Assembly (NCBI GenBank): GCA_016124735.1
Contig: WGMZ01000031.1
Span: forward strand, 121,992-185,991
Reading direction: 5' to 3'
DNA from: Bacteroidota bacterium
GTDB taxonomy: Bacteria; Bacteroidota; Bacteroidia; UBA8524
DNA length: 64,000 bases
The stretch's first letter is position 1. Each line of letters begins with the position of its first letter. Under the pieces are notes generated by a model, which saw nothing but the letters and a program-made list of their open reading frames with translations, did no database searches and had not been told where the DNA came from. The position numbers and the translations under genes are program-made. Shown piece by piece: positions 16,459 through 32,988 of this stretch.

Positions 16459-17208
16459 ATGAAACTGCTTGAAAATAAAGTTGCCCTGATTACTGGCGCC
16501 ACGCGCGGTATAGGTAAGGGAATCGCTGAACGTTTTGCTTCAGAAGGTGCAGATGTAGCCTTTTCTTTTGCCTCATCTGAGGAGAAAGCCCGAAGCCTGG
16601 AAAAGGAACTGGAAGCCAATTATGGAATCAAAGCCAAAGGCTATAAGTCCAACGCCGCCGTATTCAGTGAATCAGAAGAACTGGTCAATAATGTGTTGGC
16701 TGATTTTGGAAAAATCGATATTCTGGTAAACAATGCAGGAATCACACGAGATAATTTATTAATGCGCATGACGGAGGAGCAATGGGATGAGGTAATCAAT
16801 ACCAATTTGAAATCCTCTTTCAATCTCACAAAAGCCATCATGCGTCCTTTCCTGAAACAGAGATCCGGCTCCATCATTAACATGACTTCCGTGGTCGGCG
16901 TAATGGGAAATGCAGGACAAGCAAACTACGCGGCATCAAAGGCCGGGATGATTGGATTTACGAAATCGGTTGCCAAAGAACTGGGTTCACGTAATATTCG
17001 CTGTAATTCGATTGCGCCCGGATTCATCGCTACGGAAATGACCGATCAATTGGGAGAAGAAACGCTGAAATCATGGTCTGAAAGTATTCCGTTGAAACGA
17101 GGAGGAACACCGGAAGACGTGGCCAATGCCTGCGTGTTCCTCGGTTCTGATTTGTCTGCCTACATCACTGGTCAAACATTGCATGTAGACGGTGGTATGT
17201 TGATGTAG
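16459..17208 (+). CDS. fabG: 3-oxoacyl-[ACP] reductase
   Basis: 249 aa. TGATRGIGKGIA and NNAG motifs; YAASK catalytic motif; full-length SDR of FabG type. Confidence 0.88.
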   Translation: MKLLENKVALITGATRGIGKGIAERFASEGADVAFSFASSEEKARSLEKELEANYGIKAKGYKSNAAVFSESEELVNNVLADFGKIDILVNNAGITRDNLLMRMTEEQWDEVINTNLKSSFNLTKAIMRPFLKQRSGSIINMTSVVGVMGNAGQANYAASKAGMIGFTKSVAKELGSRNIRCNSIAPGFIATEMTDQLGEETLKSWSESIPLKRGGTPEDVANACVFLGSDLSAYITGQTLHVDGGMLM

Positions 17209-17301: not shown

Positions 17302-18813
17302 CTATTCTACAATTACTTTAGCAGAATAGGTATTCCCAAGATAATCCTGTATGCGGAGCAGATAGATGCCGTGAGCTAATTTCCGGGTATCCATCTCCTT
17401 TGCTGCAGGATTTATAGTTATACAGCGACCCTGCATATCGCAGAGCGTAATCGACTGCGCTTCCTTTTCATGGGGCAACTCCCAGTGCAGAATTCCACTT
17501 GTGGGGTTTGGGTAACATTTCAGCTGGCCCTGAATTTTAGGTCTTGCTAAACCAGAAATATTTTGCTTCCAATAATTCTGCACCTCATCCGCATGGATAT
17601 AATAATCGCAAATATTATCTAATACACTCTTTTGTTTTTGAGTGAAGATATAGGCAATATCCAACTTGATAATGTCTCCATGATTCAGTGAAACCGGTCC
17701 GGTGGTGCCAAGCATATTTCTTCGTCCCGGCACAATACCGGAACTTCCATATTCCGTCCATCCACTTCCTTTGCAGGGGTCGCCCTGAAAAAGAAATGAT
17801 TTTTGCGACGAATTGGGATCCGATATTTCACTTCCATCCTTCCACTTTGCTTTCATATACCCGTAGTATTCCTGGGGAGTTTCGGGCCAGCCCATATAAT
17901 TGTTTGTGTTCCAGTTGAATGAAATACTCTTATTCATGCGGGCATTTAAAAACTTGACGCCCATCACCGGTGGTTGATCGAGATAACCATTGGAATCATA
18001 AGGATAACCGTTGTAACAGAAATAACTGTTTCTCGCGCTATCGGTACTAATGTAATTATCACCATCAAAACCCAGCATAAAGTCGGTGTAGATTCCGGCA
18101 TACACTGAATCGTAGCGGGAGTAACTTCGATTTATTATCCGGTACTGAACAAAAACAACCTGCGGAAGTTCAGACATGGTGTATACCATTTGATAGACTT
18201 CCAAACCCATGGCTTGTGTGCCGCTCTGTTGATGATACGGACGCTTGTCGTTGTAAATCGAATAGGCCGCTTCCTGTCCTTTGAAATATGGTATTTCGCC
18301 GGAATCCGGCTCATAAATCATGTTTTGATTCAGGTCAATAAAGGGCGCCAATACCGGACTGTAATCTCCGGGCCGTGAATTCGATCCGGGCCAGTTTTCG
18401 ATCACCCAGGGTGCGGTATAGTTTGAGTTGTTGTAAGCTGATTTATGGATAGCCACTTGCGCGGAATCTACATGCCAAGTGAAATTCCAATAGGATGTAT
18501 CGTCTGCCTGTATTGTGCTCCGGTCTACTGGGCCTGGTTGAAAGTCTCTGCCGCTGCTGTCGTAACATGCAATGGCCAAACGAATTCCTCCGGAGCTGTC
18601 TTGCCCCCCTACCCACAGCCCGGAAGAGCGGATACCATATACTCCGGAACCTTTAGGCACTTCAAACCCAGGTTTTCCACGGTTTTCGAAATTAACCCCG
18701 GCATTTTGTACATAATAGCGTATTCCTCCCATTTGAAGCACTTCGATGCTTTGCTGGCCAAACAGAATGGTATTGAGAAAGATGAAAAAGAAAAACCCTG
18801 CCTTGCGTTTCAT
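17302..18813 (-). CDS. T9SS type-A C-terminal-sorting-domain protein (secreted, function unknown)
   Basis: 503 aa. Signal peptide. The C-terminal ~80 aa fit the T9SS CTD pattern (CYPNPTSGILHWEL...GIYLLRIQ...KVIVE). Confidence 0.7.
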   Translation of the reverse strand: MKRKAGFFFFIFLNTILFGQQSIEVLQMGGIRYYVQNAGVNFENRGKPGFEVPKGSGVYGIRSSGLWVGGQDSSGGIRLAIACYDSSGRDFQPGPVDRSTIQADDTSYWNFTWHVDSAQVAIHKSAYNNSNYTAPWVIENWPGSNSRPGDYSPVLAPFIDLNQNMIYEPDSGEIPYFKGQEAAYSIYNDKRPYHQQSGTQAMGLEVYQMVYTMSELPQVVFVQYRIINRSYSRYDSVYAGIYTDFMLGFDGDNYISTDSARNSYFCYNGYPYDSNGYLDQPPVMGVKFLNARMNKSISFNWNTNNYMGWPETPQEYYGYMKAKWKDGSEISDPNSSQKSFLFQGDPCKGSGWTEYGSSGIVPGRRNMLGTTGPVSLNHGDIIKLDIAYIFTQKQKSVLDNICDYYIHADEVQNYWKQNISGLARPKIQGQLKCYPNPTSGILHWELPHEKEAQSITLCDMQGRCITINPAAKEMDTRKLAHGIYLLRIQDYLGNTYSAKVIVE

Positions 18814-18864: not shown

Positions 18865-20319
18865 TTAGAAGTTATATCTCACTCCAGTGAACAAATTGTA
18901 GGAATTATACTTCTGAGTCATCCCGAAAGAGGAATTAGTTAATGATGTCACTCCGAAGCGCAAACCCGGTTCAAAGAGCAGGTCGAAATGCTTATCCAGT
19001 TTGTAACTGGCTGTCAGATTGAACATCACGTTCAGGCCTGCATACCCTTTGTATGGATTAGATGCCCCATTCAATTTGATTACATCGGTCACCGATGGGT
19101 TCACGATTTGACCTCTTTGACGGAATGCCAGGTTAAAGACCGGCCCGCCAGAAAGCCCCAGATCCCATTTATTCGTAGTATACATGTGGTAATTCAACAA
19201 GATTGGAATATCCAGGAAGGTATAGGAATTTGATGAGCGGAAAGTGGTAGTACTTCCCGGCATGGTATCCTTCACCTCGTAAGTAATCTTTTGAGGACCA
19301 TTGATTGGGTCGATGATATACCCTGTTTTTTGGTATACGTTGATTTGATCGGGGGAAGTATAATTGAAATTAAGGTTCTCATGAATCTGGCTAAAAGATA
19401 GGCCGGAACGAACACTTAAGATGCGGTTGAAACGGTATTCTGCTCTCATCTGGAAGGTGTAAGCAGCGCCAACTTTCTCGTATTTATTTCTTGCATTCCG
19501 ATAGGCTGGATTGCCTCCCTGAAAATGACGGTTTACAAAGTCGTAAGATCCAAGAATTTCTACCGACCAGGGTGAAGGAGTAATCGGAGGATTGACCACC
19601 GGCTGCTGCGCTTTTTCCGGTTGCGGATCGTTCGCTTCCTCAGATGATTTCACCAGAGGATCTTCTGTCACTTCCGGAATTTCCTCTCCTTGTACCTCTT
19701 CAACGATTTGCTCATTGTTTTCCATTTGCTCCGGAACGTCCACTTTTTCCTGCTCTTTTGGAGGAGTCACATTCGTTCCGTTTTGAGCCAGCTCCGTTTT
19801 AGAAGGCTCCTCCTGTGGCGCCATTTCCTGCGGTGTTTCTTCTGATGCCCGATTCTGAGGAGTAGCATTACTTGCCCGAGTTGGAAGTTCTGCTCTGAAT
19901 GGATTTGTTGTTGCCGGCAGTTGATTTGTTGACGCTTCAGATTGAAAAGATTGATTTTCTGCCTGCAAATCTGTGATAGAAGGAGCTTCTTCGCTTTTCC
20001 CTGCGCTTCCGGATGGAGCCTCTGGAGCAGGGGCTTCATTCACGGCCTGGGTTTGACTCAAGGCATGGTCATCTATCTTACCGTCTTTCAAGATCAGTAT
20101 AGCTGCTGAACTTATCAGGACAAGCCCCGCTGCCAGTGACATATACCAGCGGGCATTCTGTTTAAAGTTGTTAATCAACTTGTAAACAGGCGTACGTGTC
20201 TGATCAATCCTTTCCCATACATGCATGGGGGGTTCTACCGAATATTGGTCGAGCCCGTCACGGAACAGATCATCAATGGGATGCCTATTTTCGTTCATAT
20301 TCAATGTTTTGAGATTCAA
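18865..20319 (-). CDS. putative anti-sigma factor with a C-terminal outer-membrane beta-barrel-like domain
   Basis: 484 aa. Short cytoplasmic N-terminus, one TM helix (WYMSLAAGLVLISSAAILIL) and a ~170-aa Pro/Glu/Gln-rich linker. The C-terminal ~230 aa have alternating beta-strand pattern ending in the aromatic ...GVRYNF. Start overlaps the stop of the ECF sigma gene. Confidence 0.5.
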   Translation of the reverse strand: MNLKTLNMNENRHPIDDLFRDGLDQYSVEPPMHVWERIDQTRTPVYKLINNFKQNARWYMSLAAGLVLISSAAILILKDGKIDDHALSQTQAVNEAPAPEAPSGSAGKSEEAPSITDLQAENQSFQSEASTNQLPATTNPFRAELPTRASNATPQNRASEETPQEMAPQEEPSKTELAQNGTNVTPPKEQEKVDVPEQMENNEQIVEEVQGEEIPEVTEDPLVKSSEEANDPQPEKAQQPVVNPPITPSPWSVEILGSYDFVNRHFQGGNPAYRNARNKYEKVGAAYTFQMRAEYRFNRILSVRSGLSFSQIHENLNFNYTSPDQINVYQKTGYIIDPINGPQKITYEVKDTMPGSTTTFRSSNSYTFLDIPILLNYHMYTTNKWDLGLSGGPVFNLAFRQRGQIVNPSVTDVIKLNGASNPYKGYAGLNVMFNLTASYKLDKHFDLLFEPGLRFGVTSLTNSSFGMTQKYNSYNLFTGVRYNF

Positions 20320-20839
20320 TAACTTTCTTTTGTAACCATTTTCTGGCTTTGGCTAACTGAGAACGGGATGTGCCTTCATTCACGCCGAGGGTGTCTGCAA
20401 TTTCTGCATGACTGAATCCTTCAATGGCGTAAAGGTTAAACACTACTTTGTACCCTTCGGGTAAGTCCTGAACCATCCGCATGAGTTCCCCCTGCGATAG
20501 TTTGTCCAGCACCGTTGCTTCCTGAGGCATATCGTAATTGTCGTCAATCCCGATTACCTCATTCTTAAAGCTATTCTTGCGGTATAGCTTCAAAGCAGTG
20601 TTCACCATAATCCGGCGAATCCATCCTTCAAAAGAACCGTTGCCCCTGAACTTGGAGACATTATCAAACACTTTAATAAAGCCTTCCTGCAAAATATCCT
20701 CCGCCTCGAGATCAGTACGAGCATATCGGCGACATACTGCCAGCATTTTGCCGGAGTAGGTCTTGTAGAGCGCGTATTGACTTGCCCTATCCTCGCGGAT
20801 ACACCCGTTGATCAGTTCTTCTTCACGCATAAATTGCAA
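20285..20839 (-). CDS. ECF-subfamily RNA polymerase sigma-70 factor
   Basis: 184 aa. Region 2 (DILQEGFIKVF) and region 4 HTH (EGFSHAEIADTLGVNEGTSRSQLAKARKWL). Confidence 0.88.
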   Translation of the reverse strand: MQFMREEELINGCIREDRASQYALYKTYSGKMLAVCRRYARTDLEAEDILQEGFIKVFDNVSKFRGNGSFEGWIRRIMVNTALKLYRKNSFKNEVIGIDDNYDMPQEATVLDKLSQGELMRMVQDLPEGYKVVFNLYAIEGFSHAEIADTLGVNEGTSRSQLAKARKWLQKKVIESQNIEYERK

Positions 20840-20990
20840 ACAAGACTTGGTTTGGCACCTTGTTCAGTAAGCCTAAGAGGACTTAAGTTACAGAAATGTT
20901 GCCCGTCGGCGAAAGATTTTTGATAAAATTCCCGTTCCTTCCGGGCTATCCGTCTATTATGCTTGAAAGCGAAAGATAAAAGCATGACTT

Positions 20991-23108
20991 TTGTTCTCGA
21001 CCATATACATGCAAAGCTTTGATATCTTCTTCCATCTGCCTGCCTGGTATTTGCTGCTCTGTACTATTTTCGCAGCAGGCGGCGCGTGGCTATTGTACCG
21101 ATTTCCACTTTTTGGAGAAGAGGACCGTCTATGGGTCCGGCGCTTTCTGGGGGCGTTCCGCTTTGCCTTTCTTTTTATCCTGAGTGCACTATTACTGGAA
21201 CCTTTAATCCGGCATGAACGAACGGAAATAGAAAAACCCGTGGTGGCCCTTCTCGTAGATGACAGTGAATCCATTCGATTGCAGAAAGATTCGGCTGATA
21301 TCAAAGCGAAACTGGCCCAGGCAATTGAACAATTGCGCTCAGGGCTTGGAAGCACCCACCAAGTCCAGGTATTTTTAGCTGCCGATGGTATCAGCGAAGG
21401 CAAATCACCTGACTTAAATGCTCCGGCTACCAATCTATCGAAGGCACTGAAAGATCTTGACAATCAATTTGAAAACAGGAATCTGGGGGCAACCATTTTA
21501 TTCAGCGATGGATTGTATAATCAAGGGAGCAATCCGATTTATGTGATGCGCAAATCATCTGCACCGATCTATACCGTCGGGTTAGGCGATACAACTGAGC
21601 AAAGAGATCTTTGGATTGAAGAAGTACGACAAAACAGACTCGCATACCTGAGCAACCGCTTCCCATTATCCATCCGCTGCAAAGCCAATGATCTTAAAGG
21701 GCAGAATACCCGCCTACGCATCAAAAGTGGCGAACAATTGCTGCACGAGGAAACCCTTCAAATCAATGAAGAAGTTTGGTCGAAAACCCTGGATGTCAGT
21801 CTTAAAGCAGAGCATGCCGGGATGCAACGTTTTGATATTTCGCTCGAGGTTCTGCCTGGTGAGCACAGCCGCCTCAATAATCACAAAACCATCTACATGG
21901 AGGTGGTCGACGGGCGCAATAAAATTCTGATTTTAGCCGAAGCCCCGCACCCGGACTTAGCTGCCCTTAAAGAGGCCATAGAGAGCTACGACAAATACAA
22001 AGCAGAGGTCGTTTTAAGCTGGAATCTCGGGCCGGTGAATTGGAAAGATGTCAATCTTCTGATTCTCCATAGTTTGCCATCGCTGCGTTTCCCCATCGTC
22101 GATTATCTCGAAGATGCCGAAAAGAATAGTGTTCCCGTGCTTTATATTGTTGGTGAGTCGACTAATCTGAACCAAATCCGCACCTGGAGCCGGGGAATCT
22201 ATGTGCAAAGCAATCTAAGCGCCAGCAATGATGCCCTGGCTGCATTCAATCCAAATTTTCAGCTATTCACTTTGGAAGACGCAACGCTTTCGGCCCTGAA
22301 ACGCTTCCCTCCATTGTCCAGTCCGTTTGGGAATTATTCTCCCGTTCCCGACAACAGGGTGTTGTTCAAGCAAAAAATTGGAATGGTAGAATCAGGCGAT
22401 CCTCTTTTAGCCTTTTCAGATGATGCCGGACAAAAGACGGGTGTATTGTTTGGAGAAGGATATTGGCGCTGGCGATTGTACGATTACGAATTGAACGCTA
22501 ACCACAATGCCAGCGATGAAATAATCCAGAAAGTCGCCCAATATTTAGTAGCGAAGAAAGACAAACGGCCCTTTCGGGTGATTCCCGTTAAACAGCGTTT
22601 CGATGAAAACGAACGCCTTTTGTTCAGGGCCGAACTGTATAATGCCAGTTTTCAACTGGTCAATGAGCCTGACGTATTTTTAAAAGTACGGAACAGCCAG
22701 GGCAAGGAGTTTACCTATCAATTCACGCGAGATCAGGACGCCTATTCATTGGATGCTGGTTATCTTGAGCCTGGCGATTATACTTTTTCATCTACCACTC
22801 AATTTGACGGAAACCAGTACCATTCAGATGGATTGTTTTCTGTAAGTCCCCTTCAATTGGAAGCTCTCAATACACGGGCAGATTTTGATTTGCTCCGGCA
22901 ATTAGCCGACAAAAACGGTGGTCAGTTTTATACGGATGGCCAGCTTCAGAAGCTTATCAGTCAGATTGACGAGAACGAAGCCATTCACAGTATTTCTTAT
23001 ATGAAATCTAATCTGGAAGATATCATTCGTCTCCCCTGGCTTTTCTGGCTATTGGTTGTATTTATCAGCGTGGAGTGGTTTGTAAGGAAGTATTTTGGAG
23101 CCTACTAG
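20991..23108 (+). CDS. membrane-anchored VWA-domain protein
   Basis: 705 aa. Two N-terminal TM helices. MIDAS motif DxSxS (LVDDSESI) in a VWA-like domain. C-terminal TM helix (LFWLLVVFISV). Confidence 0.6.
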   Translation: MFSTIYMQSFDIFFHLPAWYLLLCTIFAAGGAWLLYRFPLFGEEDRLWVRRFLGAFRFAFLFILSALLLEPLIRHERTEIEKPVVALLVDDSESIRLQKDSADIKAKLAQAIEQLRSGLGSTHQVQVFLAADGISEGKSPDLNAPATNLSKALKDLDNQFENRNLGATILFSDGLYNQGSNPIYVMRKSSAPIYTVGLGDTTEQRDLWIEEVRQNRLAYLSNRFPLSIRCKANDLKGQNTRLRIKSGEQLLHEETLQINEEVWSKTLDVSLKAEHAGMQRFDISLEVLPGEHSRLNNHKTIYMEVVDGRNKILILAEAPHPDLAALKEAIESYDKYKAEVVLSWNLGPVNWKDVNLLILHSLPSLRFPIVDYLEDAEKNSVPVLYIVGESTNLNQIRTWSRGIYVQSNLSASNDALAAFNPNFQLFTLEDATLSALKRFPPLSSPFGNYSPVPDNRVLFKQKIGMVESGDPLLAFSDDAGQKTGVLFGEGYWRWRLYDYELNANHNASDEIIQKVAQYLVAKKDKRPFRVIPVKQRFDENERLLFRAELYNASFQLVNEPDVFLKVRNSQGKEFTYQFTRDQDAYSLDAGYLEPGDYTFSSTTQFDGNQYHSDGLFSVSPLQLEALNTRADFDLLRQLADKNGGQFYTDGQLQKLISQIDENEAIHSISYMKSNLEDIIRLPWLFWLLVVFISVEWFVRKYFGAY

Positions 23109-24147: not shown

Positions 24148-24627
24148 CTATTTCTTATCAGGGTCGTCGCCGTCCAGTGTAAATATCACCGGCAATGTTT
24201 GTTTTACCCGAACGTGTTTCCCTCTTTGCATTCCGGGTTTCCAGTCGGGCATACCCTTTACAATTTTCACGGCGGCAGAATCCAAAAGCGGATGTGCTCC
24301 TCTAACCACCTGAACATTAGAAACTTTTCCATCCTTTTCTATCACAAAGCTTACATAGACTTTTCCAGAAATACCCTGTTCTTTCGCTTTCAAAGAATAT
24401 TCGGCGCGACTGGCAATGTATTTATACATGGCTTGCTGGCCTCCCGGGAATTCCGGCATTTGCTCCACAAATAGGAAGACTTCTCCGTCTTTTTCGGTAC
24501 TCTTCTCTTCTATCGGATTCTCTTTTGGCGGATCACTGTCGTCGCGATCTCCTGCGTTCTGTTGTGCAACCACTGATGTGGTTATAAGTGCCAATCCGAG
24601 TGCGAGGGTCAATTGTCTTATTTTCAT
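24148..24627 (-). CDS. secreted TonB C-terminal-domain protein
   Basis: 159 aa. Signal peptide. TonB_C-like segment (EQMPEFPGGQQAMYKYI...GKVYVSFVIEKDG...V). No proline-rich or TM region. Confidence 0.65.
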   Translation of the reverse strand: MKIRQLTLALGLALITTSVVAQQNAGDRDDSDPPKENPIEEKSTEKDGEVFLFVEQMPEFPGGQQAMYKYIASRAEYSLKAKEQGISGKVYVSFVIEKDGKVSNVQVVRGAHPLLDSAAVKIVKGMPDWKPGMQRGKHVRVKQTLPVIFTLDGDDPDKK

Positions 24628-24635
24628 GGTATCTG

Positions 24636-25052
24636 CTAAAAATTCAGTTTCTTCTTCTTGGGTTTCTCCGATACTCCCAGATAAAAACGAATGGGTAAGA
24701 CATACTGAACTTCAACGGCTATGCCTTTTTGCATGCCCGGATTCCATCCCGGCATATTTCTCACTTCGATATCAGTTACCTCGCCCTTCTCATCTACTCC
24801 AAATTGTGCCACTACCCTTCCTTGAATGTTATGTTCCCGCCCATCGGATAGGGACCATCGATTATCCGAAATATACTTGAACATGGCGGTTTCTCCTCCC
24901 GGGAATTCAGGTGTATCCTCCACTATCTTGTATATAATTCCTGTGTCCTTTGGCCTCAGATTCGAGTCAAAACTTTCCCCGTTTTCCTGTGCAAGTGCTG
25001 AATAAGCAGCTAAGCTCAGGGTGAAGGCAAGGACCAGGTTTCGGATGTTCAT
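24636..25052 (-). CDS. secreted TonB C-terminal-domain protein (tandem paralog)
   Basis: 138 aa. Signal peptide. EDTPEFPGGETAMFKYI...GRVVAQFGVDEKGEV. Paralog of the adjacent gene. Confidence 0.65.
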   Translation of the reverse strand: MNIRNLVLAFTLSLAAYSALAQENGESFDSNLRPKDTGIIYKIVEDTPEFPGGETAMFKYISDNRWSLSDGREHNIQGRVVAQFGVDEKGEVTDIEVRNMPGWNPGMQKGIAVEVQYVLPIRFYLGVSEKPKKKKLNF

Positions 25053-28213: not shown

Positions 28214-31200
28214 TTACCTAACCAGGCTAATTGTGCCGCTTAGGTTCTTCCTTCCTCCATCGTCCAAATCTACTTTTAGCTGATAGATATAGGCTCCTGT
28301 GGGAAGAAGTTCACCACTGCGTTGGTCGGTACCATCCCAATGGAAATTCGGATCGCTCGATTCGTAAATCAATGCTCCCCAACGGTCATAAATCTTGATA
28401 TGCAGGGCATAGATCCCTGTTCCTGTTACAAAGAATTCGTCGTTTAATTTGTCATCATTTGGCGTGAATCCGCTGGGCACATAGCAGCTGAAGATTTCTC
28501 TTACCTGGTAAACGGCTTCTGCGGTATCCTTGCAGCCAAACTCTGATTCAACAAAATACAAAACAGTGTAATGACCGGTATCCGCGTAGCGATGGAATGG
28601 AGCAAAGAGCTGAGAATTTGCACCGTCTCCAAAGTCCCAGTAGTTTTTATAGGCGTGGGACGTTTTATTTACGATATGCGCTGTTGGCTCTAATATGGTG
28701 CTACTCTCAGGCTTAAAACTAATTTGTGCTACTGGTTTCGGATGTACCACAATCGGCACGTATTCGGAAGTATCGGTACAACCATAAATGCTGGTCACTA
28801 CCAAACGTGTTTGGAATGTTCCCGGTGCATCATACAAATGTGCACCATAGGGGTCGCTCTTACTTTCATAAACATTGGTCTCATATTCCCAGAACCAATT
28901 GCAGTATCCGCCCAAGGCGAAATAGTCTGAAGAGAAAAGCACTTCCATCGGCTGACATCCCGTATCAAGATCAACTGAGAAATGGGTGTCTGGCAATGGA
29001 GCCAGTCGAACACTAACCGTATCATAGGATGGGAAGGAACAATTGTCTGTTAAAGTGACGACATAATCTTCTGCCGTGTAGGTAATGACTGCCTTCTTAT
29101 TGCCGTTCCCCAAACCGTGGCTCCAGGTATATTGGTAATTGGTTGGAACTCCACCACTGGCATAGGCTTTCATTACGATGGGCCGGTCGGGACATATTAA
29201 TGTATCGCCCGTTGCTACCACTTTTAATGGAGTCGAAATCTTCACTTTCACCTCTGCGGTATCCCAGGGACTGCATCCATCACTGATCATTACACGGAAT
29301 GTGGAATCAATCAAAGGTTGGACATGCTGAACCGCTCCATTCCCAACATATTCCCAATGGTAGGAATAATTTCCAAGAAGTCCGCCCTTGCCAACTGCCT
29401 GAACCGTTGCAATGGCACCGTGACAAATCGTGGTATCGCTTGGAGTTGCAGAAACTTCCAATGGGTCTCTCAAAGTCACCTTGATTGTAGAAGAGTCGTT
29501 GATTACTGTGCAGTTATCCTGCAATCTCACCGAATAAGTCGATGAAGCTGCCGGAGTTACGCTGTAAGGAATATTTGCCGGAAGGGTGGTTTCTGTGGTT
29601 CCATCGCTCCATACAAACTCATAAGTTGGACTATTTCCGCCTGTTCCGTATGCACGCAGCAAGGCGGTGTTGCTCACGCAAATCGTTGTATCGGGACTCG
29701 TACTAATGCTCAATGGGTTTCGGAGACTTACTTTGAACGAATCATCTGTTGATAACAAGGTACAGTTATCTGTGAGTGTGACCGTATACGTCGTTTCCTG
29801 ACTTGGGGTAATTTTAATGACATTTCCGGGGCCAATATTTTTCCAGTTGAATGTATAGTGTAGAGAGTCGCCTCCCGATCCGTCAACATGGAGGTACATA
29901 CTTTCGCCCCGACATATTAAGGTGTCTGACTGAACTTTGAGGTTCAAGGGGAATCTCAGGCTGATATTGATGGATGTCGTATCCGTAAAATTGGTACAGG
30001 CATCCGATAATTTCACTTTATAGGTAGTTACCTGTTGAGTTGGCACAACATATACCGAATCCCTGGATGGAAGGTTATGGTCCCAGGTGAAGGTATATCC
30101 TCCGGAAAAGCCGCCCGTTCCCCAAACATTCAGTAATATTCCCTGGCCGTTACAAATGGTGGTATCAGTACGCGAGAAAATGCGCAGTGAGTCACGCCGA
30201 AAAGCCGTAAAATAAGCGGAATCTTTTTCATCCGAACATCCTCCATCATCTACTACCAATTTAAAAGTAATTGATGTATCCTGACTTGGCCAGGTAAAGG
30301 CACTGTCCGTCTTTACCAGATTGGTATCGACATACCAATTATAATGGTATTGAGAATCCAATCCTCCGGAAGTGAGTGCATAAATATTAACCGATTCACC
30401 GATGCAAAGGGTGGTGTCTGAGCGTGGATTTGCCTTGAGGTGGCCCCTTACATTGATTGTAACGATTGCCGTATCCCTGAGTATGGAGCAACTATCGTAT
30501 AAAACCGCCTTATAAGGAGTGGTTAGGCGCGGATTGACCAATACAGAGTCTCCATAATCTACCACCGAATTATCCAGGCTGTTAATCCAGGTATAATGGT
30601 ATTGTTTCGGTTTACCCCCCGTTGCTGTGGTCGTTAACCAAACCGATTCTCCCTGACAAATTGTTGTGTCCTGGCGTGGAATCAAACGAGGCTGAGAAAT
30701 GACCCGCATAGTCATGGTGTCCAGAAAATAGCAGGATGTTGCCGAGTCTACACTTCGAAGAATAAACGAATGTGTTGAATCCGGATAAATGCTTGGATCT
30801 ACCAGGGATGAATCGTTCAGAAAAATATCTGAAAACCAGGCGAAATCTATTCCGCCACTTGCATGCAGGGTTATTGTATCGCCGTAACACATGGAGTCAT
30901 CACTCCCCGCGTTGGTTGGAGGAACCCCTTTTATGGTCAAATTTGTCTCGAATGGATAACCTCTTACAGCAGGCGCTGTTCCACTTACCCTCAAACGATA
31001 GCCAGTTCCTTCCGGCGAAGTGAGTGGTAGGACCCCGGATAAAACCCCCGAGCCCGTATCCTTTATGGAGCCAATATTAACAGCATCAAAGAAAACACCT
31101 GTCCGGTTTGACAATTCGATATAAAACATATTCGTTGTGTCAAATACTTCATGTTTGGTATACCAAACCCTGATAGAGTCACCAGGGCAGGCTGTTTTTG

Positions 31201-32824
31201 GCGCAAACGAATCAATCTCAATATAATTCTCACGAATAGCCCATATAACCGGAGTATTGTATCCAAGGCCCGTCTCCCACGCAATCACATTGGTGTCGTT
31301 ATTAAAGTACAAGCCGATGGTATCACCTTCAACCGAAGTACCCCAGCTTTTGCTGTCTTTCCAATAAGTTGCTCCGGCATTATCCGTTGCCACCCCACCC
31401 CCATTGGTTTTTTCATTCCAATAGTACACGGTTCCGGTATGCAAACGGGTACCCGAACGGGCATTCCAGTCGCAGGAGCCATTCTTAGATATTTTTAACA
31501 GGAAAGCATCCGTTTGATAATAGCCGCCTCCCCAGGCTGTCGCCGAAAAAGGAGGCACATAAAACTGACAAATACTCGTCGAATCCGTTGTTCGGTCGAT
31601 CGTGCCGGATACAAATATTTTACCCGAATAATCGACATCCATGGAAGCGATGTTGATGCGTTGATTCAACCACCACCAGCCTGAAGGATTGCTGGTCGTT
31701 GTATTGTCACCAAAGCGTTTGACCCAATCTATAGTTCCATTGTTATTCAATCTGGAAACATATAAATCATCGAATCCAAGTCCTCCATTATTGGTGAACT
31801 TGGCGTTACCAAAACTATCTGCCCCTGACGATGATTGCATTTTACCTCCAACATAAATATACCCTTGCTCATCTACTGCCAAAGCAGAAGCGGTCGATCC
31901 CATTTGGGTCGCCCAAACCGGAGTACCATTGTTTGGAAATACCCTCATCACAAAGCCATTTTGATCGCTTTGTGTCGATCCGGCATAGAGCTTACCGCTC
32001 CCGGATTGAATGGTATTTGTAAAAGATCCCGAAACATACACGCGCCCGGTACGGTCAACTTTCACGTCTCCTCCCGCCGATTGCCAGGCTGATTGACCAT
32101 CTGCCGTAGCAATTCGCTTGCAGTAATAAGCGCTGCCATCTGTTGCTAACTTGAGTAAGAAAACACTCCAGCCCTGGCTGCTGCCAGAGATACCAGTATT
32201 TCCATATTGGAAATAGCCCTGAAACAATCCAGTAATATAAATATCGCCATTGGCGCTGCAAGTAATTCCGGTCGGGTAATCATTTGCATTTCCTCCAACA
32301 GTCATCGCCCAGTCCACGACGCCATCAGGTTTGATTTTCACCAGCCAAATATCTCCTTGCCCATAACTTCCAACTGTTTGACCCGCAATAGAAGTAACTC
32401 CATTGTAGGTCGATCCGATGATATAAGAATTCCCTGCTGTATCAATTGCAAGGGAAGTAGTCCACAGATACCCCGTCGCATCTATTGAAGTAGCCCATTG
32501 AGCAACTCCCTTTCGGTTGTACTTGGCCATGTATGGCGTAGCATATTGATTCGACCCTGCCTGGGCATAAACACTGTCTCCAAAATCAAGAGCCCCTGTT
32601 CCATAACCGGCATAACTGTACTGACTTCCTATTGAATAGACATTTCCGTACTCATCGCAAACCATATCACGAGAACCAGAGCCCCAGGTAGCTGTGCTCC
32701 AATAATGCGCGCCCTGTCCATCTACTTTGCTCCAATCGTATTTTTGGCCACTAACAGAGGCAACAGAAAATAGAAATAAAACAAGAACCGTTAATAACGA
32801 TTTCGAGTTTTGGTTTTGTCTCAT
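28214..32824 (-). CDS. large cell-surface adhesin-like protein with beta-propeller repeats, ~8 tandem SprB-type repeats, a PKD-like region and a T9SS type-B (gliding-motility-associated) CTD
   Basis: 1536 aa. Signal peptide. N-terminal repeated G..Y..G / DG..W motifs consistent with SBBP beta-propeller repeats. Eight ~85-aa repeats carry DTTIC.GES..L...GTGG...Y.Y.W. C-terminus matches the type-B CTD (FTPNDDKLNDEF...IYDRWGALIY...WDG...GAYIYQL). Confidence 0.75.
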   Translation of the reverse strand: MRQNQNSKSLLTVLVLFLFSVASVSGQKYDWSKVDGQGAHYWSTATWGSGSRDMVCDEYGNVYSIGSQYSYAGYGTGALDFGDSVYAQAGSNQYATPYMAKYNRKGVAQWATSIDATGYLWTTSLAIDTAGNSYIIGSTYNGVTSIAGQTVGSYGQGDIWLVKIKPDGVVDWAMTVGGNANDYPTGITCSANGDIYITGLFQGYFQYGNTGISGSSQGWSVFLLKLATDGSAYYCKRIATADGQSAWQSAGGDVKVDRTGRVYVSGSFTNTIQSGSGKLYAGSTQSDQNGFVMRVFPNNGTPVWATQMGSTASALAVDEQGYIYVGGKMQSSSGADSFGNAKFTNNGGLGFDDLYVSRLNNNGTIDWVKRFGDNTTTSNPSGWWWLNQRINIASMDVDYSGKIFVSGTIDRTTDSTSICQFYVPPFSATAWGGGYYQTDAFLLKISKNGSCDWNARSGTRLHTGTVYYWNEKTNGGGVATDNAGATYWKDSKSWGTSVEGDTIGLYFNNDTNVIAWETGLGYNTPVIWAIRENYIEIDSFAPKTACPGDSIRVWYTKHEVFDTTNMFYIELSNRTGVFFDAVNIGSIKDTGSGVLSGVLPLTSPEGTGYRLRVSGTAPAVRGYPFETNLTIKGVPPTNAGSDDSMCYGDTITLHASGGIDFAWFSDIFLNDSSLVDPSIYPDSTHSFILRSVDSATSCYFLDTMTMRVISQPRLIPRQDTTICQGESVWLTTTATGGKPKQYHYTWINSLDNSVVDYGDSVLVNPRLTTPYKAVLYDSCSILRDTAIVTINVRGHLKANPRSDTTLCIGESVNIYALTSGGLDSQYHYNWYVDTNLVKTDSAFTWPSQDTSITFKLVVDDGGCSDEKDSAYFTAFRRDSLRIFSRTDTTICNGQGILLNVWGTGGFSGGYTFTWDHNLPSRDSVYVVPTQQVTTYKVKLSDACTNFTDTTSINISLRFPLNLKVQSDTLICRGESMYLHVDGSGGDSLHYTFNWKNIGPGNVIKITPSQETTYTVTLTDNCTLLSTDDSFKVSLRNPLSISTSPDTTICVSNTALLRAYGTGGNSPTYEFVWSDGTTETTLPANIPYSVTPAASSTYSVRLQDNCTVINDSSTIKVTLRDPLEVSATPSDTTICHGAIATVQAVGKGGLLGNYSYHWEYVGNGAVQHVQPLIDSTFRVMISDGCSPWDTAEVKVKISTPLKVVATGDTLICPDRPIVMKAYASGGVPTNYQYTWSHGLGNGNKKAVITYTAEDYVVTLTDNCSFPSYDTVSVRLAPLPDTHFSVDLDTGCQPMEVLFSSDYFALGGYCNWFWEYETNVYESKSDPYGAHLYDAPGTFQTRLVVTSIYGCTDTSEYVPIVVHPKPVAQISFKPESSTILEPTAHIVNKTSHAYKNYWDFGDGANSQLFAPFHRYADTGHYTVLYFVESEFGCKDTAEAVYQVREIFSCYVPSGFTPNDDKLNDEFFVTGTGIYALHIKIYDRWGALIYESSDPNFHWDGTDQRSGELLPTGAYIYQLKVDLDDGGRKNLSGTISLVR

Positions 32825-32988
32825 GATATCTCAAAATTACTTTAATCGTTACAAATCAGGGAGATTTTCACAGATTTAATCGACTAAAATAGAGCTTGGT
32901 TTGAAGGAAAGATGTGTTTAGTTAACGAAACGTTGCCTACTGTTTAGGCATTTATCGAAACCCGAATGAATTTTACTATTTTCGACCA

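What the first reader, a model, noticed from the sequence alone, without database searches (positions are those of the whole stretch)
18865..23108. ECF sigma factor, then a membrane-spanning anti-sigma candidate fused to an OM beta-barrel-like domain, divergent from a large membrane VWA protein
The gene overlapping the 3' end of the ECF sigma gene encodes a 484-aa protein. It has a short cytoplasmic N-terminus, one TM helix and a ~170-aa Pro/Glu/Gln-rich spacer long enough to cross the periplasm. Its C-terminal ~230 aa have the alternating pattern and aromatic terminus (…GVRYNF) of outer-membrane beta-barrels. A single polypeptide anchored in the inner membrane and inserted in the outer membrane would be an envelope-spanning signalling device. 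It differs from canonical FecR-type anti-sigma factors. The divergently transcribed 705-aa VWA protein (MIDAS motif DDSES, three TM helices) may belong to the same envelope-stress or adhesion module.
Basis: inference. Interest (0 to 1): 0.55.

Follow-up and report, generated by a model that had tools for sequence, protein, structure and literature searches.

The report
Dma-type envelope-spanning anti-sigma factor pair
This locus encodes an ECF21-type sigma factor and a partner protein that most likely reaches from the cytoplasm to the outer membrane, a kind of signalling device first described in gut Bacteroides in 2024, so it is a new environmental member of a known family and not a new invention.

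Summary
A 181/184-aa ECF sigma gene overlaps by 14 nt a 477-aa gene (484 aa from an upstream TTG). That protein has a conserved 48-aa N-terminus, one TM helix, a 169-aa disordered E/P/A/Q-rich linker and a C-terminal OMP_b-brl_2 beta-barrel.

Membership tests made here:
- The sigma is 41% identical to Das1, and its best matches among ECF01-34 representatives are the two ECF21 members.
- A family HMM matches Dma1 colinearly (E=8e-25), including the sigma-binding N-terminus.
- The upstream promoter, GGCAAC-N17-CCTCT, is close to the published ECF21 promoter (GGCAAC-N17-CGTCT).
- Sigma and partner are adjacent in all 40 related loci examined.

The VWA-like neighbour is not part of the module. Elsewhere it pairs with a fabG-like SDR gene, and in this lineage the sigma cassette sits between the two.

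One new lead emerged. A T9SS-cargo gene follows the pair here and in four other lineage groups. A second ECF21-type promoter precedes another T9SS cargo gene 10 kb away.

The parts
20876..20903 (-). ECF21-type promoter upstream of the sigma gene: GGCAAC (-35), 17-nt spacer, CCTCT (-10 region). Presumed to be autoregulatory.
   Evidence: The motif G[GC]C[AC][AG]C-N15-18-N[GCA]TC[TA] occurs in 28 of 34 sigma-upstream regions across Bacteroidota loci. Shuffled controls gave a mean of 3.1 and a maximum of 8. It resembles the published ECF21 promoter Pecf21_up4014, AGGCAAC-N17-CGTCTAT. Sequence read.
20285..20839 (-). ECF21-family sigma factor gene, the Das1/EcfO counterpart. It encodes 184 aa from TTG 20839, or 181 aa from ATG 20830.
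   Evidence: Sigma70_r2 and Sigma70_r4_2 domains. 41% identity to B. thetaiotaomicron BT_4720/Das1 over 177 aa, E=6e-46. Among 38 representatives of ECF01-34, the best hits are the two ECF21 members at 139 and 136 bits; the next is ECF29 at 93.6 bits.
20155..20298 (-). Cytoplasmic N-terminal region of the Dma-type anti-sigma factor (aa 1-48, MNENRHPIDDLFRDGL..PPMHVWERIDQ). Presumed sigma-binding module.
   Evidence: It is the most conserved part of the protein: 64% mean identity, against 41% for the barrel and 13% for the linker. The motif is present in 165 of 179 family members. An N-terminus-only HMM scores Dma1 residues 12-35 at 17.1 bits, and 0 of 3000 shuffles reach that score. Dma1(1-40) binds Das1 in vitro (PMC10927553). 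The same motif plus a TM helix, without a barrel, still sits next to the sigma gene in Roseivirga and Owenweeksia.
20083..20154 (-). Single inner-membrane transmembrane helix (aa 49-72).
   Evidence: This is the only 19-residue window in the protein with Kyte-Doolittle hydrophobicity above 1.6. AF2 predicts helix 49-72 with pLDDT about 85. A TM-like segment occurs in 169 of 179 family members, with median start at residue 51.
19576..20082 (-). Intrinsically disordered periplasmic tether (aa 73-241), rich in E, P, A and Q.
   Evidence: pLDDT is below 50 over residues 73-224. Mean identity to homologues is 13%. Composition and net charge of -23. The approximate linker length across the family has a median of 180 aa and a range of 105-266.
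18865..19575 (-). C-terminal outer-membrane beta-barrel domain (aa 242-477, plus the stop codon). It includes a conserved hairpin, TGYIIDPINGPQKITYEVKDT (aa 325-345, nt 19264-19326).
   Evidence: PF13568 at E=1.3e-10. AF2 pLDDT above 90, with 10 long DSSP strands. Foldseek best matches are 8-stranded barrels: OmpA TM domain at TM-score 0.68 normalised to target length, OmpW 0.67 and NspA 0.65. hhalign against the Dma1 barrel gives probability 96%, E=4.6e-9.
17302..18813 (-). Gene for a 503-aa secreted protein with a T9SS type-A sorting domain, 51 nt downstream of the anti-sigma gene. Probable third gene of the operon in this lineage.
   Evidence: Por_Secre_tail at E=7.8e-10 and TIGR04183 at E=2.7e-9. 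No terminator-like site lies in the gap. The gene is conserved at this position in all close relatives. Unrelated Por_Secre_tail proteins occupy the same position in four other lineage groups.
20991..23108 (+). 705-aa membrane protein with a VWA-like domain (invariant D90 and S94 of DxSxS). It is a neighbour only, and I judge it NOT to belong to the module.
   Evidence: The adjacency is restricted to the close syntenic lineage. Homologues in Mucilaginibacter, a Vicingaceae MAG and a 4.4-Mb genome lie directly after a fabG-like SDR gene, with no sigma/Dma pair. In the window that SDR gene is at 16459-17208(+), so the three-gene cassette lies between the SDR gene and this one.
32910..32937 (-). 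Second ECF21-type promoter-like site, GGCAACGTTTCGTTAACTAAACACATCT. It lies 86 nt upstream of the 1536-aa T9SS type-B cargo gene 28214..32824(-). Tentative regulon member.
   Evidence: It is the only other motif match in the 64-kb window. The count of two matches is itself no more than chance. TAGGCAACG followed by CATC about 16 nt downstream are the conserved blocks of an otherwise diverged intergenic region in orthologous loci whose proteins are 70% identical. CHU_C at E=1.6e-16 and TIGR04131.

Best explanation
The locus is an ECF21 sigma factor / Dma-type anti-sigma factor pair, the environmental counterpart of Das1-Dma1 (EcfO-Reo) of gut Bacteroidales.

The two genes are translationally coupled by a 14-nt overlap. 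They are transcribed from an ECF21-type promoter (GGCAAC-N17-CCTCT), which the sigma factor itself presumably recognises.

Proposed mechanism:
1. The partner protein inserts into the inner membrane as an N-in signal anchor.
2. Its 48-residue cytoplasmic N-terminus holds the sigma factor inactive at the membrane.
3. The 169-residue disordered acidic tether crosses the periplasm.
4. The C-terminal small beta-barrel is assembled into the outer membrane.
5. Damage to, or a ligand at, the outer membrane or cell surface is sensed through the barrel.
6. This leads to proteolysis of the tether or anchor, release of the sigma factor, and transcription of its own operon and regulon.

Shown here: the domain architecture, homology to Das1 and Dma1, the promoter type, and strict gene linkage.

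Inferred from work on Dma1/Reo: sigma binding by the N-terminus, dual-membrane topology, proteolytic activation and outer-membrane stress as the signal.
For: Architecture:
- One TM helix, a disordered linker and a high-confidence barrel.
- All top structural matches are outer-membrane barrels.

Sigma factor:
- 41% identical to Das1, E=6e-46.
- Closest to the two ECF21 representatives among ECF01-34.

Partner protein:
- An HMM of 179 family members hits B. thetaiotaomicron Dma1 (BT_4721) at 73.7 bits, E=8e-25. The alignment is colinear from the N-terminal motif through the TM helix to the barrel.
- The N-terminus alone scores 17.1 bits, with 0 of 3000 shuffles reaching that score.
- hhalign probability 96%.

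Promoter:
- The conserved motif occurs in 28 of 34 loci, against 3.1 in shuffles.
- It resembles the published ECF21 promoter.

Linkage:
- 40 of 40 related loci from Saprospiraceae, Chitinophagaceae, Flavobacteriales, Bacteroidales, Cytophagales-like and other lineages have the sigma orthologue (40-93% identity, or both sigma domains) directly upstream on the same strand.
- The N-terminus is the best-conserved region.
- The N-terminus stays paired with the sigma gene even where the barrel is absent.

Family size: 1701 clusters at E<=1e-30, and nearly all of the top 150 are full-length matches.

Published experiments on Dma1: Dma1(1-40) pulls down Das1. [quoted passage not shown]
Against: - Nothing about this particular protein has been tested experimentally.
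- Pairwise BLASTP against Dma1 is not significant (E=0.11). Homology is visible only with profiles.
- The Dma1 sequence available to me was cut at 399 aa.
- The N-terminus matches no Pfam or NCBIfam anti-sigma domain.
- The AF2 model shows 10 long strands, whereas Dma1 is reported to have 8. I could not inspect coordinates to decide between a 10-stranded barrel and an 8-stranded barrel with an extra hairpin.
- The signal, the protease and the regulon are unknown here.
- No nigD-type gene, the known regulon in Bacteroidales, was seen next to the pair.
Confidence: 0.85

Rival explanations
1. The 477-aa protein is simply an outer-membrane protein that the sigma factor transcribes. It would be a regulon member, not a regulator. 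Its N-terminus plus hydrophobic segment would be an unusually long, cleaved signal sequence, so the mature protein would never bridge the two membranes.
For: NCBI annotates it only as an 'outer membrane beta-barrel protein'. No known anti-sigma domain is detected. In B. thetaiotaomicron, OMVs contain only C-terminal fragments of Dma1, so processed forms do exist.
Against: The 48 residues before the hydrophobic segment are the best-conserved part of the protein (64% identity), which is not expected of a signal-peptide n-region. They are homologous to the Dma1 segment that binds Das1 (PMC10927553). The same N-terminus plus TM helix remains next to the sigma gene in proteins with no barrel at all (Roseivirga, Owenweeksia). 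Full-length Dma1 carrying both tags was detected in membranes.
Confidence: 0.07
2. The divergent 705-aa VWA-like membrane protein would work with the sigma/anti-sigma pair as one envelope-stress or adhesion unit, sharing the 151-nt divergent control region.
For: The genes are divergent, with a 151-nt intergenic region. The arrangement is kept in all close relatives down to 37% partner identity. The DxSxS motif has D90 and S94 invariant.
Against: All 31 related sigma-partner loci outside the close lineage lack the gene. Its homologues in three other lineages lie immediately downstream of a fabG-like SDR gene on the same strand, without a sigma/Dma pair. In the window the same SDR gene lies on the other side of the cassette. 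The adjacency is therefore best explained by insertion of the cassette between the SDR gene and the 705-aa gene.
Confidence: 0.05
3. The pair is a paralogous Dma-like system (as Dma2 is to Dma1), with a different input and regulon from EcfO-Reo. It would be dedicated to T9SS-secreted surface proteins and not to the general outer-membrane stress / NigD / vesiculation response.
For: A T9SS-cargo gene follows the pair here and in four other lineage groups, in one of them as tandem sigma-Dma-cargo modules. An ECF21-type promoter precedes a second T9SS cargo gene. This subfamily carries a conserved extra hairpin in the barrel.
Against: Only 64 kb of the genome was seen, so I cannot say whether another, more Dma1-like pair exists in it. 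The promoter count in the window is at chance level. Other lineages have MsrA, SLT or unknown genes in the downstream position.
Confidence: 0.3

Closest known systems
Dma1/Das1 (BT_4721/BT_4720) of Bacteroides thetaiotaomicron, and its orthologue Reo/EcfO of B. fragilis and Phocaeicola vulgatus
   Same: An ECF21 sigma gene followed in the same operon by a protein with a short sigma-binding N-terminus, one TM helix, a long disordered tether and a C-terminal OMP_b-brl_2 barrel. Restricted to Bacteroidota. The sigma is 41% identical to Das1. The partner is homologous by profile, including the N-terminus. The promoter is of the same type.
   Different: Partner identity is too low for BLASTP. The barrel here is longer, at about 236 aa with 10 DSSP strands and a conserved DPINGP hairpin. 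No nigD gene is adjacent. A T9SS-cargo gene follows instead. Whether Bacteroides has a T9SS was not tested here; from my own knowledge it does not.
Dma2/Das2 (BT_1558/BT_1559) and Dma3 (BT_2778) of B. thetaiotaomicron
   Same: Same architecture class. [quoted passage not shown]
   Different: Dma2 is reported only in the genus Bacteroides. Dma3 has the sigma domain fused to the same polypeptide, whereas here sigma and partner are separate, overlapping genes.
FecI/FecR/FecA-type cell-surface signalling
   Same: An outer-membrane event is relayed to an ECF sigma factor through a single-pass inner-membrane anti-sigma factor.
   Different: In Fec systems the outer-membrane component is a separate TonB-dependent transducer that contacts the periplasmic domain of FecR. 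Here one polypeptide provides both the inner-membrane anchor and the outer-membrane barrel. No FecR or DUF4974 domain was detected.
RseA/RpoE envelope-stress system of Proteobacteria
   Same: An ECF sigma factor is sequestered by a single-pass anti-sigma factor, with autoregulated operon logic and probable activation by regulated proteolysis.
   Different: RseA has a soluble periplasmic domain and senses unfolded OMPs through DegS. There is no outer-membrane-integrated domain. RpoE (ECF02) is only 29% identical to this sigma (69.7 bits).
PorA-PorXY-SigP signalling of the Porphyromonas gingivalis T9SS
   Same: It is a precedent for a T9SS cargo (CTD) protein acting as a signalling ligand that feeds into an ECF sigma factor (PMC7712824, PMC12152298). 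This is relevant to the T9SS-cargo gene that follows the pair here.
   Different: That pathway runs through a two-component system and an orphan sigma factor, not through a Dma-type anti-sigma factor. No homology was tested or is claimed.

Membership tests
[quoted passage not shown] | N-terminal cytoplasmic sigma-binding region related to Dma1(1-40)/Reo | tested here: met
   An N-terminus-only HMM built from 179 family members aligns Dma1 residues 12-35 (KEKLGDYSEPLPASGWEQLEKEL) at 17.1 bits. None of 3000 shuffles reach that score; the highest is 8.7. Binding itself was not tested.
[quoted passage not shown] | Single alpha-helical transmembrane segment directly after the N-terminal region | tested here: met
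   There is one hydrophobic window, residues 58-80 of the 484-aa form. AF2 predicts helix 49-72 of the 477-aa form with pLDDT about 85.
[quoted passage not shown] | Long intrinsically disordered tether between the TM helix and the barrel | tested here: met
   169 aa with pLDDT below 50 and no predicted secondary structure. Mean identity among homologues is 13%. The composition is rich in E, P, A and Q.
[quoted passage not shown] | C-terminal outer-membrane beta-barrel (OMP_b-brl_2; eight strands in Dma1) | tested here: met
   PF13568 at 42.1 bits, above the cut-off of 27. AF2 pLDDT above 90. The best Foldseek hits are 8-stranded OmpA, OmpW and NspA at TM-score 0.65-0.68 normalised to target length. 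hhalign to the Dma1 barrel gives probability 96%. The strand number, 8 plus a hairpin or 10, is not resolved.
[quoted passage not shown] | Encoded immediately downstream of, and in an operon with, an ECF21 sigma factor gene | tested here: met
   The genes overlap by 14 nt. The same adjacency holds in 40 of 40 related loci.
[quoted passage not shown] | Overall sequence homology to Dma1 (BT_4721) | tested here: met
   The family HMM scores Dma1 (399 aa available) at 73.7 bits, E=8e-25, colinear over hmm positions 13-457. Pairwise BLASTP alone is not significant.
[quoted passage not shown] | One polypeptide physically present in both the inner and the outer membrane; anti-sigma activity | not testable with these tools
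   Requires fractionation, tagging and genetics, as done for Dma1 (PMC10927553).
[quoted passage not shown] | Restricted to Bacteroidota | tested here: met
   All named relatives are Bacteroidota. One record is titled 'uncultured Burkholderiales' (L017), but its gene content is that of the same Bacteroidota lineage.
ECF21 sigma factors | Closest in sequence to ECF21 members and not to other ECF groups | tested here: met
   BLASTP against 38 representatives of ECF01-34 (Rhodius 2013, Table S1) gives ECF21_2825 at 139 bits and ECF21_1280/Das1 at 136 bits. The next best is ECF29 at 93.6 bits. Groups ECF35-43 and the ECF Hub HMMs were not tested.
ECF21 sigma factors | ECF21-type target promoter upstream of its own operon | tested here: met
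   The window has GGCAAC-N17-CCTCT at 20903-20876. The published Pecf21_up4014 is GGCAAC-N17-CGTCT. The motif is conserved in 28 of 34 loci. Use of this promoter by this sigma factor was not tested.
FecR-type anti-sigma factors | FecR / DUF4974 periplasmic domains and an associated TonB-dependent transducer | tested here: not met
   No such Pfam or NCBIfam hit at E<=1. No TonB-dependent receptor gene lies next to the pair.
von Willebrand factor type A domain (the 705-aa neighbour) | Significant match to a VWA profile and a MIDAS motif | tested here: inconclusive
   The Pfam VWA and VWA_2 hits are sub-threshold (E=0.057 and 0.26), and NCBIfam gives nothing. In the DxSxS motif, D90 and S94 are invariant and S92 nearly so in 41 homologues. 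AF2 shows an alpha/beta domain at residues 71-200. The whole-model Foldseek search was dominated by beta-sandwich domains and was uninformative.

The most novel reading that the evidence does not exclude
In Bacteroidota that have a type IX secretion system, this branch of the Dma/ECF21 family may form a three-gene unit: sigma, envelope-spanning anti-sigma factor, and T9SS-secreted surface protein.

In that reading the cargo protein is either the main output or a surface co-sensor for the barrel, analogous to PorA signalling to PorXY-SigP.

The evidence:
- Unrelated Por_Secre_tail proteins sit directly downstream of the pair in five lineage groups whose partner proteins share only about 20-25% identity.
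- In one group, sigma-Dma-cargo modules are tandemly repeated.
- A second ECF21-type promoter, conserved in orthologous loci, precedes a 1536-aa T9SS type-B cargo gene 10 kb away.

I found no mention of such a link in the Dma papers I read.
Probability: 0.3. Interest if true: 0.5.

Novelty: new member of a known kind. Interest (0 to 1): 0.3.

Why it matters
The Dma family is recent, and so far it has been studied only in gut Bacteroidales, where it controls vesiculation, NigD lipoproteins and gut fitness.

This locus shows that the same device is present in an uncultured environmental Bacteroidota lineage, with a recognisable ECF21 sigma factor and promoter. The public annotation calls the partner only an 'outer membrane beta-barrel protein', so the finding gives it a better functional label.

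The survey made here also gives the field four practical things:
- A sequence signature for the sigma-binding N-terminus.
- A promoter motif conserved across the phylum, usable for regulon prediction.
- Natural barrel-less and repeat-containing variants that separate the sigma-binding module from the barrel.
- A recurrent link to T9SS cargo genes, which suggests outputs other than vesiculation.

None of this changes the concept. It extends a known one.

Tried and rejected
- A sequence search of the partner protein against PDB found nothing.
- The broad alignment A2 was too divergent for the locus search. I used A1 instead. It returned no Bacteroides locus.
- The Dma paper and the ECF reclassification paper have no supplements held as text. 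The EcfO/Reo paper PMC3536166 is not held. The Das1, Dma1 and ECF21 promoter sequences were finally found in the Rhodius 2013 supplement.
- The sigma-70 promoter and terminator scan of the locus gave nothing above chance.
- A whole-model Foldseek search of the 705-aa protein hit only generic beta-sandwich multidomain proteins at TM-score about 0.12 and was uninformative.
- I considered and rejected three readings: a FecR-type system (no such domains), a PorT/SprT assignment (NCBIfam 15.5 bits against a cut-off of 125), and the VWA gene as a module member.
- The relaxed promoter regular expression gives many false positives in GC-rich loci, so I did not use it to call regulon members there.
- No second sigma/Dma pair exists in the window.

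Full report
**Observation**

The sigma ORF at 20285..20839(-) has Sigma70_r2 and Sigma70_r4_2 and matches the general ECF model TIGR02937.

The partner ORF at 18865..20319(-) is 484 aa from a TTG. Every homologue and the NCBI protein start at the ATG at 20298 (MNENRHPIDD..., 477 aa). That ATG lies inside the last codons of the sigma gene, giving a 14-nt overlap.

The protein has these parts, in order:
- One hydrophobic segment.
- A 168-169-aa acidic linker rich in E, P, A and Q.
- A C-terminal domain that passes the Pfam gathering threshold for OMP_b-brl_2 (PF13568, E=1.3e-10) and ends in an aromatic residue.

AlphaFold2 on a 36-sequence alignment gives:
- Three short helices at residues 7-47, with pLDDT 60-69.
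- A TM helix at 49-72, with pLDDT about 85.
- A disordered stretch at 73-224, with pLDDT below 50.
- A beta domain at 244-476, with pLDDT above 90.

All top Foldseek matches in the PDB are outer-membrane barrels. The best overlap, normalised to target length, is with the 8-stranded OmpA (0.68), OmpW (0.67) and NspA (0.65).

**What it is**

[quoted passage not shown] Pardue et al. (PNAS 2024, PMC10927553) described Dma1 (BT_4721) of B. thetaiotaomicron as follows:
- It is an OMP_b-brl_2 protein with an N-terminal region whose first 40 residues pull down the ECF21 sigma factor Das1 (BT_4720).
- It has one TM helix, a long disordered region and a C-terminal 8-stranded barrel.
- The full-length, doubly tagged protein is in membranes, and only C-terminal fragments are in OMVs.

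Later work defines the family by the same four parts and states that ECF21 sigma factors are encoded next to Dma members (PMC13088901). It describes the orthologue Reo/EcfO as a probable outer-membrane stress sensor (PMC13114119).

**Membership tests**

The Das1, Dma1 and ECF21 promoter sequences are printed in the supplement of Rhodius et al. 2013 (PMC3817407).

- Sigma factor. The window sigma is 41% identical to Das1 over 177 residues (E=6e-46). Among 38 representatives of ECF01-34, its two best hits are the two ECF21 proteins at 139 and 136 bits. The next group scores 93.6 bits.
- Partner, pairwise. The partner is too diverged from Dma1 for BLASTP.
- Partner, by profile. A profile of its relatives aligns to the Dma1 barrel with 96% probability. 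An HMM of 179 family members scores Dma1 at 73.7 bits (E=8e-25), colinearly from the N-terminal motif through the TM helix to the barrel.
- N-terminus alone. The cytoplasmic N-terminus scores 17.1 bits, with none of 3000 shuffles above 8.7.

**Family and linkage**

An exhaustive profile search found 1701 clusters (at 50% identity) at E<=1e-30. Nearly all of the top 150 match end to end at 420-570 aa.

Of 179 members of at least 400 aa:
- 165 carry the N-terminal motif, roughly [HN]-[IP]-D-x-L-F-[RK]..L......P...VW..I.
- 169 have a TM-like segment, starting near residue 51.
- 160 end in F or L.

The N-terminus is the most conserved region: 64% identity, against 41% for the barrel and 13% for the linker.

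In 40 of 40 related loci, an orthologous sigma gene (40-93% identity, or both sigma domains) lies directly upstream on the same strand. These loci come from Saprospiraceae, Chitinophagaceae, Flavobacteriales, Bacteroidales, Roseivirga, Draconibacterium, Owenweeksia and unclassified MAGs.

In Roseivirga and Owenweeksia the partner is only 237-253 aa. It has the motif and the TM helix but no barrel. That argues the N-terminus, not the barrel, is what is tied to the sigma factor.

**Promoter**

Upstream of the sigma gene in 28 of 34 loci there is a motif of the form GGCA[AG]C, 17-18 nt, C[GA]TCT. Shuffled controls gave a mean of 3.1 and a maximum of 8. The window copy is GGCAAC-N17-CCTCT at 20903..20876(-). 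The ECF21 promoter used by Rhodius et al. is AGGCAAC-N17-CGTCTAT. This supports the classification and the usual autoregulatory logic.

**The VWA-like neighbour**

The 705-aa protein is widely conserved in Bacteroidota (206 hits). D90 and S94 of its DxSxS motif are invariant. Its Pfam VWA hits are only sub-threshold. The AF2 model is multidomain, and its fold search was uninformative.

The gene lies beside the sigma gene only in the close syntenic lineage. In Mucilaginibacter, a Vicingaceae MAG and a 4.4-Mb genome it follows a fabG-like SDR gene on the same strand, with no sigma/Dma pair. In the window that SDR gene is at 16459-17208(+). The minus-strand cassette (sigma, Dma-type gene, T9SS-cargo gene) therefore sits between the SDR gene and the 705-aa gene. 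The divergent arrangement is an accident of insertion and not a module.

**A lead beyond the known**

The gene 51 nt downstream of the partner (17302..18813, -) encodes a 503-aa protein with a T9SS type-A sorting domain. No terminator-like site lies between them.

Unrelated Por_Secre_tail proteins, mostly with PKD domains, occupy the same position in four other groups:
- Flavobacteriales MAGs (L029, L031).
- L032.
- Draconibacterium and a Bacteroidales MAG (L034, L041).
- L047-L049, where two sigma-Dma-cargo modules stand in tandem.

Other lineages have different genes there: MsrA (Lewinella sp. W8 and L025), an SLT transglycosylase (Bacteroidales L028 and L040), or unknown genes.

The only other promoter-motif match in the window is at 32937..32910(-). 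It lies 86 nt upstream of a 1536-aa T9SS type-B cargo gene. In orthologous metagenome loci whose proteins are 70% identical, TAGGCAACG followed by CATC about 16 nt downstream are the conserved blocks of a diverged intergenic region. The match count in the window is at chance level, so this is a lead and not a result.

**Verdict**

The system is a member of the known Dma/ECF21 family. The VWA link is not supported. Interest is modest. What is new is the environmental member, the phylum-wide motif and promoter signatures, the natural barrel-less variants, and the possible T9SS-cargo connection.

Noticed in passing
window 32910-32937 (-) and gene 28214-32824 (-); L044, L045 and L046 around position 1381-1420: A second ECF21-type promoter-like site (GGCAACGTTTCGTTAACTAAACACATCT) lies 86 nt upstream of a 1536-aa T9SS type-B (CHU_C) cargo gene with PKD and SBBP repeats. 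The -35 block TAGGCAACG and a CATC about 16 nt downstream are the conserved parts of the intergenic region in orthologous loci whose proteins are 70% identical.
   Followed up: partly
window 17302-18813 (-); L029:5602-6792, L031:5644-6789, L032:4689-5972, L034:4587-7106, L041:4700-7222, L047:6239-7855, L048:3166-4776, L049:6327-7928: A T9SS type-A sorting-domain protein is encoded directly downstream of the sigma/Dma pair in five lineage groups. The cargo proteins are otherwise unrelated. In L047-L049 two sigma-Dma-cargo modules are in tandem.
   Followed up: partly
L038:3998-4723, L039:3998-4711 (Roseivirga); L043:4001-4762 (Owenweeksia): The partners of the orthologous sigma factor are only 237-253 aa. 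They keep the conserved N-terminal motif and the TM helix but have no beta-barrel domain. These are natural barrel-less variants.
   Followed up: partly
L019:4004-5440 (Lewinella sp. W8), L026:4022-5596 (Neolewinella persica), L037:2510-4090: The N-terminal motif (IDDLF...P..MW.RI) is repeated two or three times before the TM helix, which starts at about residue 73-118 instead of about 50.
   Followed up: no
L019:5539-6267 and L025:2165-2893; L028:5529-6584 and L040:5401-6339: In other lineages the gene after the pair is a methionine sulfoxide reductase (PMSR, E about 1e-57 to 1e-59) or an SLT lytic transglycosylase. The MsrA case fits the oxidative-stress role first reported for EcfO.
   Followed up: no
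window 19264-19326 (-), aa 325-345 of the 477-aa protein: A strongly conserved segment, TGYIxDPINGPxxITYTVRDT, forms an extra beta-hairpin (DSSP strands 318-330 and 334-346) within the barrel domain of this subfamily. Its location, surface or periplasmic side, could not be determined without coordinates.
   Followed up: no
window 16459-17208 (+) and 20991-23108 (+); L006, L007, L008: The fabG-like SDR gene and the 705-aa VWA-like membrane protein gene are immediate same-strand neighbours in three other Bacteroidota lineages. This suggests the two are functionally linked to each other. In the window lineage they are split by the inserted three-gene cassette.
   Followed up: partly
L017 (CAZUIT010000034.1): The record is titled 'uncultured Burkholderiales bacterium', yet it carries the same five-gene neighbourhood as the window, with sigma 93%, SDR 86% and the other three genes 50-56% identical. 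It is probably a mis-binned or mislabelled Bacteroidota contig.
   Followed up: no
window 24148-25052 (-); L001:1-1262: There are two small tandem genes for secreted proteins (159 and 138 aa). Their syntenic counterparts in L001, where three stand in a row, carry TonB_C domains. They lie next to ruvX and the peptide deformylase gene. Not examined further.
   Followed up: no
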